From Octopus sinensis (Eukaryota): a DNA stretch of 64,000 nt. Of the stretch, positions 11,753-56,399 are shown one piece after another. The stretch lies in the NCBI RefSeq assembly GCF_006345805.1, contig NC_042997.1, positions 45,570,001 to 45,634,000 of the forward strand, in the 5' to 3' direction. The notes below the pieces were generated by a model. It searched no databases and had not been told where the DNA came from. It was given only the letters and a program-made list of their open reading frames with translations. Position 1 is the first letter of the stretch, and the number at the start of each line of letters is the position of its first letter. Both the position numbers and the translations under genes were made by a program.

Positions 11753-13842
11753 GCATACATATATACACCCATACACACACATGTATACATAGGTGCGGGT
11801 GTGGCTGTATGGTAACAAACTTGGTTCCAAAACACATGGTCCTGGGTTCAGTTCCACTGTGTGGTGACTTGGCATGTGTCTTCTGCTATAGCCTCAGACC
11901 AACCAATGCCTTGTCAGTGGATTTTGTAGACAGAAACTGAAAGAAATCAATCGTATATATATGTATATATATATGTAAGTCTATGTGTGTCTCTTTATCT
12001 CTGTGTTTCTCCCTCATCCCTGCTTCACAACTGGTGTTCGTTTATTTACATCCCCATAACTTACTGGTTTCACAAGAAGAAACTGATAGAATAAGTACCA
12101 GGCTTATTAAAAAAAGCACTAGGCAGTGTCTCATATTTTTGTTTGACCACTCAGTTGTATCTATCAATTTATCCTTTGTGTGTGTGTATATATATATATA
12201 TATAATACACACTCTCTAATATATATACATGTATGTATATGTGCACATTCATATCTACTATATCAAAGTCAATGTCTTTATGTGTGTTCGTGTGTTACTT
12301 ATATATTCGAAAACTGCTGCACCGATCCTAATGAAATTTGGAACTTAGATTCAATGTATAAGGGCGTGTATAATGCAATATGCCTGGTTTGAATTTCAGA
12401 TGGCTTGAAAGGGGCTGAACTCCCATGAAAATTCATAAATTTTCGATGTTGATTAAATTTCAACCATGGGTAATTGAAACACATCAAAAAGTATTCTCAA
12501 AGTTTCCACTTCTCATGAGGATTCTAAGACACCCTAATGGGGGCCTTAACTCCCAAATCTTAGTAATTTCTTTTATGATCCAAAACTAGGTCAAATGTAT
12601 TGAATGGATCTTAATGAAATTTGGAGATTATATTCTATGCATAAGGGCCATAACCCCCATGACAATTCATATATTATTGCTGTTGATGAAATTTTAACCA
12701 TAGATATTAGACACAAATGAAGTAATATTTATAAAATTTCATCTTCTTACAAGTTAGAAAGACCCCTTCATGGGGTCTTAACACCCACAATTTAGTCATT
12801 TTATCTAAGCAAAGACGAATACAGTTGTGCTCTTGGAAGCTGTAGGGTCACCCGAGTATAAAAGATGAGCATTATTTGTAATTCAATGGTGCAACAGTGT
12901 AAGAGTTTGCTTTGAAATATACTTAGATTGGGATTTCTGCAATGTGGTGCATACATTGTCAAGTAAATGAGAGGCATCTTTGCCTCCACTGATTCAGTTG
13001 CAAAGTGTTGGGTAAAGTTATTTAGTTGCAGACCTCCTTTTTATTATCACTAGGTCACACATAGTCCCCAGATTGTAACACTGATTTCAAGGTCTTCCCA
13101 GATGAGTGACTGGCTATTCAAAGACATTTATAGATTGTAAATTTTTTCTGTCCAGTTACGTATCAGTATAGTGGTCATTTGCAAACTCCAGAGGTGACAC
13201 TTTTATTTCTCCTTAGCCCTCACGTCACACAGTTGTTAATGATTATTTCAGTTGGGTTACGCCCTTCTAATTGCTATAGATCCGTAATGCATCTTACGGC
13301 TGTGCCTGTCACCTGTATGGTGAAGAATCCTACATTGGGAATGGTAACGACTAGGGTACGGTAGCTGACTGCTTATTACGATCATTCGTCTTTTGGTTTC
13401 CTGTAGCTTTGCTCTCTTTTACAAACCCAGTGAACATACATATATTTCCTATTTCAAAGAAATTCAAACAATAGATATAAGACCCAAGTTAAAAAAAGAT
13501 TCTCAACAATTCAACTTCTCTGGTAGACATTAAGACACCCACCTCCAATAGGGGCCTTAACTCCCATATTTTAGAGCTCCATGACCTCCATTTTTCAGGA
13601 GCAAAATCCTTTCAACAGGTTCTATAAGACTGGAATTTTGGAATCTGCGCATAAAAATCAGTAGTATGGATACATGTGTCATGATTATAATTTTTTAGGG
13701 TGTGTAAAGAGGGAAATAACCCTCATCTGCAATTTTGATGAAATTCGAATCATAGGTATTCCAGATCAATACAGAAAATATGACAGAAAAGTCTAATTCT
13801 TCAATTGCATGTAATACGGGCAACGCTGGGTATCTCTGCTAG
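10674..13842 (+). mobile_element. Non-autonomous Helitron (composite, carrying nested SINE and LINE fragments)
   Basis: 5' TCTATATATATAAAA after A10673; 3' imperfect hairpin cgggcaacgctggg plus CTAG at 13839-13842 before T; no TSD. A second Helitron-like 5' end (TCTACTATAT) at 12254 and internal repeats at 12320-13570. Confidence 0.8.
11791..12120 (+). mobile_element. CORE-type tRNA-SINE (diverged)
   Basis: Matches the family at 45983-46389. Confidence 0.8.
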
Positions 13843-14964
13843 TATACTATAAGCCCACGGACTCCAAGCAATATCTACCGTTCAACTTATGCCACCCCAG
13901 ACACACCAGAATGAATACCCCTTTCAACCTAGCAAAAAGGATATGTACTTTAGTTTCTAATACAAACACCAGAGACATACTACATGAACTAAACGATACA
14001 CTCATCACCAGGAACTACCCACCTTCACTAATTGACATATACTTTCAATGTGCCCTTCAACTGAACATCCACGAACTTAGACATCCCAAATTAAAGAAGG
14101 ATTTACAACTAAAAGCCCTACGATACATCTCCACACACAACCCTCTTAACAATGAAGCCTTCGACACCATCCTTCAAAACATTTCTCTGCTAAAAAAGGA
14201 CCAGAGAATAAAATTAATCCTCTAAACACATACCATCCTAAAAAAGCAAGTGACAACCCAAATCTATGAAAAGTCTCCTAACACAAGCCCGAATACGCTC
14301 GCCAACAACACAGAAGCCGTCAGTAAAAAAAAAAATTGCGGAAAATTCATCTGTGGGATATGTGTCAATTTAATTGAGGGATCAGAGTTCTCCTCAAACA
14401 GGGACAAAGTTACACAGTGAAAAGCAGCTTCACATGTGCTTCGGAGAACCTGATATACACACTAACCTGTTCTGGGTGTCAAGAGCAATACATAGGCCAA
14501 ACAAAAAACACTCTACATCAAAGGATGGCTCTGCACAGATCCCAGACCAGAATTCCCCAAAACAGAAAAACAGCATTCAGCCAACACATCGATATTTGCG
14601 CCAATAATAAAAATCCAAACTTCAGAATTTTCCCCTCTATCAATTCAGAGACGATACAACCTATAGCCAACGAATTAGTGAAGAGACTCTCTTTATTACA
14701 AAATACAGGCCTCTTTTAAACGCATCTACAACAAACGACATATCCACCACGGCCTTAGAATAACACAAACACACTCGCAAATATTAAAAATGATACACTC
14801 AAGAGAATTCATTAAAAAACAGTCCCAATCACTGCCACAAGAGTAAACAAGAGAGACAGAAATAGGCAGAAACAAGGAAATTGCCCCTTGTATGTGAATG
14901 CTATGCAAATATTCTTTTAAAAAACTTTTCTTTAATTTTTCCAAAATTTAATTGTTTTCCATAC

Positions 14965-26339: not shown

Positions 26340-28220
26340 CAGGTGTTATTCAACCTTTATACTCCCGACATATGTTTCGAAAGAAAACATTGTTATTATT
26401 CCGGAGGGAATAAAATGATGTAAAACAATGCAATCATCTCGTCAGAGAGAAAAGGCGAAACAAAACACATCAATAGACCATTTTAACCGAGTGTGATTAC
26501 CGCGTATATGGCGAAGGGGAACGCTTTGAAGTTATTTTTTAAAAAACCGTTTATAGATTTAACGTCAAGAGCAATTTAGAGAAAGAGAAGGAGGAGAAAG
26601 AATGAAATTAACACAAAATTAAGAGTGGAGAAATATAGTCCGATAGATGGATGGGAATAAAGCTTAAAATCGTGGAAATAGATATATGTAGGAGAAATGA
26701 AAGGTCAAAAGGCAGTAAAAAGGCGAATTTCATAGATTGGTAGAAATTACTTAGAGGAACTAAAGGTATGTTTTTGCCAATGTTTGCAACGATAAACGCG
26801 TTATTTAAACGTGTTTCAAGAGAATTCTCCGAGAACAGAATGAGATATTATTCTTCGTTAAAGAGTGGACAACAAGATTTACCTTTGTCATATGGAAAGG
26901 ATTTAGATAGAATATTCCATTCCAAATCAAATTGCTTATGTTCCTTTAGAGACCAAATTAATTTACTAAACCCAGTATTGTTGCGTTTATTGATATGGCT
27001 AAATGTAGAATAATGGTTAGATATTCTTTTCGGCAACTGAGATGAAGAACTACCTATGTAAAAAGGACATCAGAACCAGAAGTAATTTTACATTGATATA
27101 CAGAGTTTTAGTCTAAGAATTACTGCTAAGGAAACAAATACAATTCGAATTTATATCAGAAATATTAATATTGTTGTTATTATTGTTCAAAGAATGGTTA
27201 GTGTTAATAATACCAATGTTATTATTTTCATTAAGTGGATTTGTATTTCACAACTTATCGTTATGCGAAGTGATTTGTGAAAAGCTTTTGGTGTTTGAAA
27301 GCCCTATTCTATTTCGGTGTGAATTGATAATAGGATGCTAGCTTGAAAGGTTTTGGAAATTCTTATCTATAGCTTCATGAAACTGGTAAGGGACGTTGGA
27401 TTTGATCTGCTTACCATATGGAATTACCAACCAAATAGTTTTACTAGGACATACCTTGTTATTAGGGTTAATTATTTTTAAAAGTCCTAGATTTACTTTT
27501 ATTACGTATAAAGGGACTTAAATAACGGTTATCTCCCTTACGCAGCAAAACTACATTTTTCGATTTAGTGTTGTTATTCGAACTAAAATTTATATCGTTA
27601 TTACCGTTATAACGTGTTTTCATGCCCTGATTAATAGAGGTTGAATTAATGTCAATAGGGTTAATATAGGTAATTTTTTCTTTATAGCCTGCTTTATGTA
27701 AGGCAGAGTTATAAAATTCGGCTTTATCGTTGAAGATATGAACATCGGCAGATAATCTAGAAAGCCTAAGTGAAATACTCCTAACTAAATTTCTTGTAAT
27801 AGCCTTTGAATGATTACTGAAAGAGCTAATATATTTTAAATTAGCTGATGGTTTATGGTATGGGAAATAAGAATCATTATATAAGTTAAGGGTAATATCC
27901 AAAATGTTGGCTTTAATTGTATCATCATCCAAAACAATGCTTAAGCCGATGTTTCGGAAAAAATTAACCAACGTATTTTTAGCCCTTTGTAATTTTTATT
28001 TAGAAAAAGTTTGAAGGTAGAGTAGACAATCTTCACAATATAAACCTCCATTGATGTTTAGGAATTGGTCAGCCATCTCATAAAGGATATATATACCAAC
28101 CAAATCAGCCAATTTTGCTGAGGCAGAACTTCCCATCTTGGCATCAAAACTGTCAGACGTATCTTTACGGACGCACAGCTTGTTTTCGAAGATTTGAATA
28201 ACACCTGCGTTTAACTCCAT
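26340..28220 (-). mobile_element. Second Penelope-like retroelement remnant (RT + GIY-YIG)
   Basis: RT-like FDAKMGSSASAKLADLVGIYIL..GLYCEDCL and LDITLNL...PYHKP...YISSFSNH; endonuclease VYQCKI..YIGSSSQLPKRISNHYSTF..FSKLIWSLK..WNILSK..CPL. Confidence 0.85.
26361..26450 (-). ncRNA. Hammerhead motif with extended stem II at the 3' end of the Penelope element
   Basis: Minus strand: CTGACGA-ga..cattgtt..ttattcc/ggaataa..aacaatg..tc-GAA-ACATATGT-C; stem I weak. Confidence 0.6.
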
Positions 28221-52643: not shown

Positions 52644-53655
52644 CAAGGGAGAGGCGTTGTAAAGGAATTCGAATTCGGAGAGCTAGTGAGCCAAGGCGAA
52701 GAGGAGAGAGTCGAAGTTCCTTCCAAATTTGAATTTCTTTTTAGTAAAATAGCATTCTCAAAATAGGCGTTTCTGCAGAATATAATGCAGGTGTAAACAA
52801 CGTCTTCGATATTATAGTGAAATATTGTTGGATATCTCACGCCGCCATAATACTAGGCCGCTACATCTATGCATCAATCTTCCTCTTTTTTTTTTTAATT
52901 TCCTGAAACTTGTCGATTTAAGTGAATATTTGTAATATAGAATATGTTATGTGTACAGGAAAAAAATTTTATAATACATAATGTACAATTTATCTTACTA
53001 TCACGATAGGTAAGTATGTGTATGTTTGATTTCAGAGCGAAAATACCATCTGTTCACTTCTGTGTACGAGTTGTGTAAACGGAAAGAAACGGAGACAGAT
53101 ACTAAACAGCGAATCAGCAGAATCATTAGACCTCTCGATATATTATATTGCCATATATATTATATTTGTCTTGCCTCTCAATACTCTGACTTTAAATTCT
53201 GGAAAGGATAAACCTTGCCTTTTATTCTTACAGTCAAGTACTGAAGTCAATTCTTCTCTTGCTATTCATCTCTTAGAATCGGTAACCTAACGGCGTGAGA
53301 AGGAGGATTTGCGCGATGTTTGGTAGCTGGATATCTGTGTGGAACACTGGTATATTGTTTGCAGTAACATTATTGATACACTTCTTCAGAATTCATATCT
53401 ACCTATTTTATAGTAAGGATAGTATATATATATATATAGATAGATAGATACAGACACGCGCACACACACACGATTATATATATACCTCTCACACACACAA
53501 CACACATGCACACATATACAAGAACGTACATGCACTTTCACATGCACATAAATACACACACATAACACACATAAACACGTACACACACACACACACGCGC
53601 ACACACAGAGTTACTATCATTCATATATATACATATACATATATATAATATATAT

Positions 53656-53709
<54 letters not shown>

Positions 53710-53787
53710 ATAAAATATTAGGGAATAATCCAAATTTACAGGGAAAAAATCAGATTTAGGATTAAATCCAATTTTATAGTAAAATAT

Positions 53788-54107
53788 TATAAAATATTAT
53801 TAGAGACACAAACCACTATTTTGCAAAACAAACAAGGAAAGACTTAATCAATACATAAAATTTTAATAAATAGTCAAAAAAACCGCCACTACAATTGTTT
53901 CTTGTCTTGATCGACAATCTCAGGTGGACTTCCAATAAGTCAGTTTCAAATTATGAAGTCAACTGACTTATTGGAAGTCCACCTGAAGATTGTCGATCAA
54001 GACAAGAAACAATTGTAGTGGCGGTTTTTTGACTATTTATTAAAATTTTATGTATTGATTAAGTCTTTCCTTGTTTGTTTTGCAAAATAGTGGTTTTGTC
54101 TCTAATA

Positions 54108-54117
<10 letters not shown>
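53788..54117. repeat. Fold-back palindrome (about 157-bp arms, 15-nt spacer) in (TA)n
   Basis: 53788-53945 is a near-perfect reverse complement of 53961-54117. Confidence 0.95.
53979..54021 (+). ncRNA. Minimal type I hammerhead ribozyme, intact core
   Basis: CCAC-CTGAAGA-TTGTC gatcaa GACAA-GAA-ACAATTGT-A-GTGG; predicted GUA cleavage after 54017; the mirror copy near 53886-53927 lacks one core A. Confidence 0.85.
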
Positions 54118-54145
<28 letters not shown>

Positions 54146-54146
<1 letters not shown>

Positions 54147-54542
54147 TAGCAGTATCGCCCGGCGTTGCTCGGGTTTGTAAGGGAAATAACTATATAAGCA
54201 TTTTTAGAGATGTAAAGTATAATAGCCATCTCAATATGGCTAACCACAAAGGGTGGTGGTGTTACTCTAGCTTTTTACGTTCTGAGATTTAATAATAAAC
54301 TTTTAGAGAGTTACTTCCCTTATATATGCCTAAAATGCATTAAAAATGGGAAAAATTGATGGTAAATTTTTTTAAAATCATAGACTCATCGTAGACGCGC
54401 GCTAATACCCAGAAGGGATCGATATAAATCACGACTATAAGATACCCGGTTTTGGTTAAACTGCACCGCAAAATGTGGGAGTAGTTAGGAATCTAAATCG
54501 TAGGAGACAGACAGCACACAACCTCACTTTTATATATAAAGA
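54146..54542 (-). mobile_element. Short non-autonomous Helitron, copy A
   Basis: 5' TCTTTATATATAAAAG; 3' cccgagcaacgccggg hairpin plus CTAG; A|T site. Confidence 0.85.
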
Positions 54543-54767
54543 TATATATATATATATACATACAAACCAACTTTCTGTCATAAAGTGGTCACAAAAACCG
54601 ATAGAAAATAAGTTAAAGCGGTGCTTCAGCTTGACCACTGTCCTACGACTGACATCGTTAAAGAGATAAAAAAATACATACACACACACACACACATATA
54701 TATACTGACACATATATAGCTGAATAGATATTGAACGTATGTACATGCATATACGTATGGTGGATGA

Positions 54768-55151
54768 TGGAAGCACTCCGTCGGTTACGACGATGAGGGT
54801 TCCGGTTGATCCGAATCAACGGAACAGCCTGCTCGTGAAATTAAGGTGTAAGTGGCTGAGCACTCCACAGACACGTGTACCCTTAACGTAGTTCTCGGGG
54901 ATATTCAGCGTGACGCAGAGAGTGACAAGGCCGGCCCCTTGAAATACAGGTACAACAGAAACAGGAAGTAAGAGTGAGAGAAAGTTGTGGTGAAAGAGTA
55001 CAGCAGGGATCACCACCATCCCTGCCGGAGCCTCGTGGAGCTTTTAGGTGTTTTCGCTCAATAAACACTCACAACGCCCGGTCTGGGAATCGAAACCGCG
55101 ATCCTACGACCGCGAGTTCGCTGCCCTAATCACTGGGCCATTGCGCCTCCA
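54768..55151 (-). mobile_element. Young tRNA-derived SINE (family 3) with TSD
   Basis: TSD gcatatacgtat at 54747-54758 and 55153-55164. Confidence 0.92.
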
Positions 55152-55573
55152 CGCATATACGTATACGCGCGTGTACGCATATGTATGTACATACGTTCAA
55201 TATATCTATTTAGCTATGCGATTCACTTCTCTTTGTAACATTTCTTGTCTCATTCACTTCTTTCCAGCGCTGACCCTGATTTCTCTTTTATCATTACTTA
55301 TTAAATCACCTTACTTTTCTAACACTCTCTTTATACTGCAGAGTGCGCTACATTTCTTCTATTCGTTCTTTACTAATGCTTATCTACCTCGTTCATTCTT
55401 TCTTGTACTTCTCTCTTACACTGTCTTTTTCGATCTTTCCTAACTATCTAATTCACCTCACTCTGGTGCCAATTTTTTTTTAAAATGTAGTTGTAGTCTC
55501 AGAGGCTATAAATGTTTCCTGTATTCAGCTATTTGTACGATGCAGTGGTTATGCAGGATTTGAAGTCCTGAAA

Positions 55574-55896
55574 TCTTTATATATGAAAGTGAGGTTGTGT
55601 GCTGTCTGTCTCCAACGATTTAGATTTCTAACTACTCCCACATTCTGCGGTGCAGTGTAACCAAAAGCGGGTATCTTATAGACGTGATTCATATCGAGCC
55701 CTTTTAATGCATTTTTTTGCTATTATATAAGGGAAGTAACTCTCTAAAAATGTATTATTAAATCTCAGAACGTAAAAAGCTAGAGTAACCCTTTGTGGTT
55801 AACAATATTGAGATGGCTATTATACTTTACATCTCTAAAAATGCTTATATAGTTATTTCCCTTACAAACCCGAGCAACGCCGGGCGATACTGCTAG
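55574..55896 (+). mobile_element. Short non-autonomous Helitron, copy B
   Basis: Same family as 54146-54542 with an internal deletion; TC...CTAG ends. Confidence 0.85.
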
Positions 55897-56399
55897 TATT
55901 CTATAGATGTGAAGCTTCTTGTTAATTGCTGTACGCCCATTGACCAGGTCAAAGGAAACAACACTCCAATCAATAGATATTGCATGAAGTTTGGTTCTTT
56001 TATTAGGTATGTGTACACCTGTCCAAGTAACTACACAGCGAGGTGGATCGAATTTTTGTACCTATGTCCATCTCTAAAGTTATATAGGCGCAGGATCCGA
56101 ATCTCGTAATTTTGCGGCATCCGTGTCTGAGATACTACTCACAGCACCTGATTACGTGGGAATACAGGCTTGTTTCCTGCGAGACAGTCAAGACAGCTCA
56201 GTCCTGCATTGAAAACATTGCTTTAGTTAAGAAGTAATATGACTGCGTTGTTTTGAAAGATGGCAGACGGTGATAATGAAAAATAAACAGACAGGAACTA
56301 GATAAAAGAATTGTTCGCTGGTACAATGGCTGTCATAGTTGTTGAGGGGAAAACATTTCTTCCTCTCTCTGTCTCTTTCTTTCTACACACACACACATT

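What the first reader, a model, noticed from the sequence alone, without database searches (positions are those of the whole stretch)
53788..54117. Intact minimal hammerhead inside a near-perfect fold-back palindrome
Seen: CCAC-CTGAAGA-TTGTC/GACAA-GAA-ACAATTGT-A-GTGG at 53979-54021 has the conserved core nucleotides, although stem II closes with U-A rather than G-C. It lies in one arm of a roughly 157-bp inverted repeat in (TA)n, and the opposite-strand copy has lost one core A. Inference: a young inverted pLTR-type insertion whose transcript could either self-cleave or be sequestered as long dsRNA.
Basis: partly seen in the sequence, partly recalled or inferred. Interest (0 to 1): 0.75.

Follow-up and report, generated by a model that had tools for sequence, protein, structure and literature searches.

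The report
Spliced Penelope leader copied head-to-head
This DNA hairpin is two back-to-back copies of the intron-less front end of a Penelope-type jumping gene, one of hundreds in this genome; it is likely a dead by-product, but it indicates that the element's ordinary spliced message can be copied into DNA, which bears on an open question about how these elements move.

Summary
The hammerhead and palindrome are real, but the element is larger (53706-54117) and asymmetric: a ~255-nt arm with an 82-nt tail, head-to-head with a 157-nt arm, inside (TA)n. It is the 5' leader of a Hydra-clade Penelope-like element (PLE). A parent copy has the same hammerhead exon, then RT and GIY-YIG endonuclease frames. 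Parent-type copies carry a ~1.8-2.0 kb GT-AG intron where the window joins two exons exactly. The genome holds 551 exact spliced junctions versus 1,185 unspliced acceptors. 96 of 101 spliced arms reach no further upstream than one initiator-like site. 140 of 145 pairs are one long plus one short arm. Likely mechanism: two cDNAs, primed on opposite target strands at two fixed sites of uncleaved, spliced, sense RNA, then joined at their 3' ends. Inverted pLTR plus tail is known; I did not find spliced PLE copies in print, but four key papers went unread. The scan noted the same on another genome (e1-9506236). The ribozyme looks selected in the family; cleavage is untested and it is probably inert here.

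The parts
53623..53705 (.). (TA)n target, left flank
53706..53787 (-). 82-nt tail, only on the long arm; lies between the two fixed 3' ends of the family and 54 nt before the parent's ATG
53788..53936 (-). exon 2 of the leader, long arm
   Evidence: aligns to parent L189
53886..53927 (-). hammerhead copy lacking one core A in the assembly (possibly an error)
53937..53959 (-). exon 1 (23 nt), joined to exon 2 with no intron; inferred +1 A at 53959
53960..53960 (-). extra G not templated by the parent (C there) or by the opposite arm; likely cap-derived
   Evidence: L032; suggestive only
53961..53969 (+). last 9 nt of exon 1, short arm; head-to-head joint at 53960/53961
53970..54117 (+). exon 2 of the leader, short arm, ending at the first fixed 3' end
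   Evidence: 3 substitutions and 3 indels against parent L189
53979..54021 (+). intact type I hammerhead with short palindromic stem III; predicted cut after 54017
54009..54016 (+). self-complementary octamer, predicted dimer helix III
   Evidence: duplex -6.4 kcal/mol; loop covariation
54114..54145 (.). (TA)n target, right flank

Best explanation
The palindrome is two head-to-head copies of the intron-less 5' leader of a Hydra-clade Penelope-like retroelement, likely made as two separate cDNAs from spliced, probably capped, uncleaved sense RNA. Shown: same exon and hammerhead in an RT/EN-coding parent; exact intron loss; a 5' wall at one site; two fixed 3' ends; one long plus one short arm. 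Inferred: the enzyme nicks both strands of (TA)n, starts reverse transcription at the two internal sites that bound the tail (one per strand), runs the short distance to the RNA 5' end, and the two cDNA 3' ends are joined by microhomology or filler. The product has no ORF and no intron and is likely dead. The hammerhead is a passenger that is likely active only as a dimer or with protein (about 0.6) and is not needed for copying.
For: Parent L189: acceptor, hammerhead exon, tail, ATG 54 nt later, RT and EN frames, then exon 1 plus donor again. 13 of 13 measured introns are GT..AG at the window's junction, 12 of them 1,810-2,002 nt. 551 spliced junctions; spliced forms also in several sister subfamilies. 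96 of 101 arms do not extend upstream of TTC-A-CTT by more than one chance base. Base before +1: G 70, other 51. Pairs: 140 of 145 long+short, 1 short+short, 0 long+long; 28 have a truncated long arm with a full short arm, 16 the reverse; centre loop in both orientations, 23:9. Joints vary, with fillers and one ~90-nt copy of flank. No peak of arm starts at the cut site (5 of 393 at q66-74); a core A13U variant occurs in 18 of 308 arms. In vitro, a Poseidon PLE nicks and extends both strands, starts at two internal sites bounding the tail, and uses uncleaved RNA (PMC11167929).
Against: Subfamily variants match between arms in 61 of 62 cases; this fits one RNA or one source locus but also snap-back. 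The 23:9 loop bias favours some long-first snap-back. Cap-G is weak after removing arm-templated cases: 11 of 28, p = 0.007 at 18% G, 0.07 at 25%. 5 of 101 spliced arms (15 of 121) extend upstream of +1. Pair and start samples were chosen by 5' patterns, so they are biased to complete arms. No RNA data fix the start site or the splice. The parent read has one frameshift in an A run. No tree was built.
Confidence: 0.75

Rival explanations
1. Same origin, but one cDNA primed at the tail end snaps back at the RNA 5' end, copies itself, and is trimmed by the endonuclease to give the short arm.
For: Small hairpins at the joint; arms share variants 61 of 62; loop read on the long arm 23:9; self-priming proposed in PMC3846280.
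Against: Cannot give a full short arm with a truncated long arm (28 pairs) or the flipped loop (9); solo short arms exist (19 of 101).
Confidence: 0.15
2. A self-propagating non-autonomous palindrome or retrozyme, spread from a few spliced masters, possibly via cleaved circular RNA.
For: High copy number; a common joint type; some head-to-tail arrays of family fragments exist.
Against: Joints differ locus to locus; no start peak at the cut site; several haplotypes and sister subfamilies each have spliced forms.
Confidence: 0.06
3. A MITE or fold-back DNA transposon with long terminal inverted repeats.
For: Short, ORF-less, inverted arms, TA flanks.
Against: Arms unequal; centre variable; exact intron loss; parent encodes RT and GIY-YIG.
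Confidence: 0.02
4. The palindrome is a long-read fold-back artefact.
For: Many single-base indels in arms (278 indels in 41,993 bases); this locus was not spanned by independent reads.
Against: Fixed long/short asymmetry in 140 of 145 pairs; a head-to-head joint of another copy type is present in contigs of runs X1 and X2, two samples (4 letters left out at 53957).
Confidence: 0.02

Closest known systems
Hydra clade of C-terminal EN+ PLEs (Craig et al. 2021, PMC8557442; passages and supplement parts seen)
   Same: DKT, CxCX5C, CxxC and CxH motifs, (TA)n targets, CUGAnGA-N hammerhead with short palindromic stem III; inverted 5'-truncated copy and one-sided tail
   Different: Not Hydra-1_Obim (hammerhead and protein differ by eye); tail 82 nt rather than 30-40; ~1.8-kb 5' UTR intron; hundreds of spliced leader-only copies
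Adineta vaga Penelope insertions (PMC3846280; passages)
   Same: Inverted pLTR, tail, palindromes at the joint, solo pLTRs, N-rich insert in the ORF
   Different: Authors favour self-priming on an antisense template to explain head-to-head repeats and intron retention; spliced arms here need a sense template
Poseidon PAc of green anole in vitro (PMC11167929; parts 1-2 of 4)
   Same: Two RT start sites bounding the tail, both strands extended, AT-rich target, uncleaved RNA used
   Different: Other clade; there the hammerhead overlaps the ORF start; inverted products and splicing not addressed in the parts read
D. virilis Penelope pLTR (PMC2377424 passages; PMC4209133 parts 1-2 of 4)
   Same: Start site and 5' UTR intron in the pLTR, acceptor just before the hammerhead, small palindromic helix III, low activity without dimer
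   Different: 75-bp intron described as retained in genomic copies; G10.1-C11.1 described as highly conserved
Metazoan non-LTR retrozymes (bioRxiv 10.64898/2026.07.22.740005, part 1 of 5; PMC7229834 listing only)
   Same: ORF-less, type I hammerhead, PLE-derived
   Different: Defined as head-to-tail tandem units; this is a head-to-head pair

Membership tests
Type I hammerhead (PLE variant) | Core CUGAnGA, GAAA, UH triplet, stems I and II | tested here: met
   all 28 hammerhead regions matched by a loose pattern in tail-selected loci keep the core
Type I hammerhead (PLE variant) | Palindromic helix III for dimer pairing | tested here: met
   99 of the 100 listed sister motifs have AATT, GATT or GATC, 1 has AATC, though the pattern left 2-6 free bases; duplex energies
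Type I hammerhead (PLE variant) | G10.1-C11.1 pair | tested here: not met
   U-A here; variable in sisters and in published Hydra motifs
Type I hammerhead (PLE variant) | Self-cleavage | not testable with these tools
   needs in vitro assay
EN+ PLE insertion | Leader linked to RT plus C-terminal GIY-YIG frame, repeated as pLTR | tested here: met
   L189; one frameshift in an A run
EN+ PLE insertion | Inverted 5' copy and one-sided tail | tested here: met
EN+ PLE insertion | Target-site duplication | tested here: inconclusive
   both flanks are (TA)n
Hydra clade | DKT, CxCX5C, CxxC and CxH motifs; (TA)n targets | tested here: met
   P0001, P0002
Hydra clade | RWK motif | tested here: inconclusive
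   parent has KWK at the aligned place
Hydra clade | Placement in RT phylogeny | not tested
   no tree; P0001 matches P0009 at E 2.6e-79, 35%, P0002 at 4e-32; P0009 looks nearly identical by eye to Hydra-2_Amil; Pfam gave no informative hit
Non-LTR retrozyme | At least two consecutive head-to-tail units each with a hammerhead | tested here: not met
   head-to-head pair at this locus
MITE | Equal terminal inverted repeats around a constant interior | tested here: not met

The most novel reading that the evidence does not exclude
About a third of this family's leader copies are natural 5'-RACE products: they record the start site, splice junction and cap of a PLE mRNA, show that PLE reverse transcriptase copies spliced sense RNA without ribozyme cleavage, and show that every two-armed insertion uses each of the two start sites once, as a dimeric enzyme priming both target strands would. 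Intron retention in PLEs would then reflect template choice and selection, not an antisense template.
Probability: 0.55. Interest if true: 0.68.

Novelty: new variant of a known kind. Interest (0 to 1): 0.5.

Why it matters
Template polarity, intron retention and the origin of inverted pLTRs are stated as unresolved for PLEs (PMC3846280, PMC8557442). This family gives hundreds of young natural products with an internal marker (the splice junction) and a strict long+short rule, which turn those questions into simple counts and a defined in vitro test. The single locus has no sign of function.

Tried and rejected
Rfam: no hammerhead hit; e-value hits are generic hairpin matches. The abundant PLE family matching window 13815-14222 (784-aa frames) is not the partner: no similarity to the leader in 23 loci L129-L151. 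First tail pattern gave the parent only through L122. Pfam and PDB searches of the parent gave nothing informative. Sequencing runs: no RNA holder listed. Laying contigs was not locus-specific, so neither the lost A nor an empty site could be tested. Folding of the monomer gave no support for the active shape (z 0.77). A-to-I editing as the source of A66G was considered and dropped because unspliced copies carry it too. Four papers were not held.

Full report
Observation. The hammerhead lies at 53979-54021 on the plus strand, with a predicted cut after 54017. My descriptor found it once in the window and never in 100 dinucleotide shuffles; Rfam does not detect it. The arms 53788-53945 and 53961-54117 differ by three single-base indels and no substitution. 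The left arm runs on for 82 nt to 53706, where (TA)n begins, so the unit is 53706-54117. Below, q numbers count along the long arm from 53960.

Family. The window is in a 2.72-Gb animal genome, likely an octopus: the only named protein hits are from Octopus bimaculoides. A search with the short arm gave 874 candidates, 40 scored, 95-100% identical. Arms end at two fixed places, about q173 and q255, followed by (TA)n (393 arms). Among all fetched loci, 140 of 145 head-to-head pairs with at least one arm reaching exon 1 are one long plus one short arm, 1 is short+short, none long+long, and 4 have a deleted arm. These loci were chosen by patterns and are not a random sample. Apart from a few subfamily sites, substitutions are rare (352 in 41,993 bases, 228 of them at eight sites), so the family is young.

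Parent. Loci chosen by the tail showed long relatives with an AG acceptor right before q25. Exon 1 followed by GT was then found directly (30 of 30 fetched loci; two other exact hits, L198 and L199, are spliced copies with a changed base). All 13 introns measured are GT..AG at the window's q24/q25 junction; 12 are 1,810-2,002 nt and one is 1,134 nt. Locus L189 reads acceptor, hammerhead exon, tail, ATG 54 nt later, a 520-residue RT frame, a frameshift in an A run, an N-rich stretch and an endonuclease frame, then exon 1 plus donor again about 4.0 kb after the ATG. The protein has DKT, CxCX5C, YIG, CxxC and CxH, with KWK in place of RWK; these match the Hydra clade as described in PMC8557442. 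It matches P0009 (E 2.6e-79 and 4e-32), which looks nearly identical by eye to Hydra-2_Amil. It is not Hydra-1_Obim. No tree was built.

Spliced copies. Exact counts in the genome: 551 spliced junctions (28-nt pattern), 1,185 acceptor-exon 2 junctions, 250 donors; reversed controls 0. So about a third of these boundaries are spliced. Sister subfamilies also have spliced and unspliced forms. Of the first 100 listed spliced arms plus one partner, 94 begin at q2-q11, 2 match one more base, and 5 extend 6-65 or more bases upstream; the pattern forced q11-38, so only the upstream wall is informative. The wall is at the A of TTCACTT, an initiator-like site (consensus recalled). The base before it is G in 70 and C, A or T in 51 places; the parent has C. 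Most G cases could come from the opposite arm; among 28 cases templated by neither, 11 are G (p = 0.007 if G is 18%, 0.07 if 25%). The window copy is one of the 11. Untemplated G is read as a cap signature for L1 and SVA (PMC4859970, passages). This is suggestive only.

How the hairpin forms. Joints vary: direct overlaps, palindromic or TA-rich fillers, and once a ~90-nt copy of the flank, so they seem to be made at each insertion. In 28 pairs the long arm is 5'-truncated and the short arm complete, in 16 the reverse, and the centre loop occurs in both orientations, 23 to 9. A short-primed cDNA lacks the tail and a long-primed snap-back should leave the long arm whole, so two separately primed cDNAs fit best. 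This agrees with the in vitro result that a Poseidon PLE extends both strands and starts at two internal sites that bound the tail. Against: arms share subfamily variants in 61 of 62 cases, which snap-back also predicts, and later deletions could mimic truncation. Spliced arms cannot first arise from an antisense template, the model favoured in PMC3846280; most copies here still keep the intron.

The ribozyme. Across 1,198 sister motifs (100 listed) loop II, N7 and 10.1-11.1 vary; the core was fixed by that pattern, so its conservation there is circular. Not circular: loop III was left free and is AATT, GATT or GATC in 99 of 100, a series that keeps self-pairing (duplex -6.4, -5.8, -10.0 versus +0.3 kcal/mol for AATC). 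This points to selection for a dimer helix, as proposed in PMC4209133, where such motifs cleaved poorly in vitro. Monomer folds do not favour the active shape and read-through RNA would bury both copies in a hairpin. Only 5 of 393 arms start at q66-74 (sample biased to complete arms) and a core A13U variant occurs in 18 of 308 arms, so cleavage is apparently not required for copying, as in vitro. The lost A in the left arm is as frequent as deletions in other two-base runs and could not be checked at this locus.

Literature and novelty. Inverted pLTR, tail, (TA)n targeting and opposite-strand hammerhead pairs are described. Searches for spliced or intronless PLE copies and for twin priming in PLEs listed no paper that reports them by title or abstract; I read only passages or parts of eight papers. 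Arkhipova 2003 (not tried), Pyatkov 2004, Arkhipova 2017 and Lunse 2017 (not held) were not seen, nor the supplements of the bioRxiv preprint; any may bear on novelty. My reading was noted before I saw earlier scan notes; these report similar hairpins in other genomes, one with the same spliced reading, and related elements in this genome. They are leads, not support.

Verdict. A real, young, probably functionless product of a Hydra-clade PLE; known architecture, with a spliced-leader twist that makes the template and inversion questions testable. Origin about 0.93, two-cDNA mechanism about 0.7 to 0.75, interest 0.5.

Noticed in passing
window 54143-55899: A second inverted-repeat element abuts the right (TA)n: ~330-400-nt arms 91-93% alike around ~1 kb. 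Its ends resemble Helentron/HINE termini (recalled, untested); similar ends flank several other loci, e.g. L141 at 95%.
   Followed up: partly
window ~54720-55150, minus strand: Stretch inside that element that looks like a tRNA-derived SINE (recalled resemblance; ARAGORN finds no tRNA).
   Followed up: no
window 26833-28190, minus strand: Degenerate Hydra-type RT and endonuclease fragments, 40-43% identical to the parent protein.
   Followed up: partly
window 13815-14222: Fragment of another PLE family (Neptune-like by recalled motifs) with 10,907 candidates and several 784-aa frames, some in ~4.4-kb tandems; not the partner.
   Followed up: partly
L205, L206, L211-L213, L218-L220: Head-to-tail arrays of about 240-455-nt units that include the tail and the bases after it, some without the hammerhead.
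   Followed up: no
L190, L192, L200: About 1,010-nt tandem repeats of the exon 1 plus donor region in unspliced copies, and multi-kilobase head-to-head palindromes of unspliced arms.
   Followed up: no
L003 spacer: The joint holds a ~90-nt copy of the flank beyond the short arm.
   Followed up: partly
L189, between RT and EN: Asparagine-rich insert like those reported in Adineta Penelope ORFs (PMC3846280).
   Followed up: no
spliced leader q1-34: Splicing brings the RNA 5' end next to a complement just before stem I, forming a predicted hairpin that takes one stem I base; several joints fall at q27-34.
   Followed up: partly
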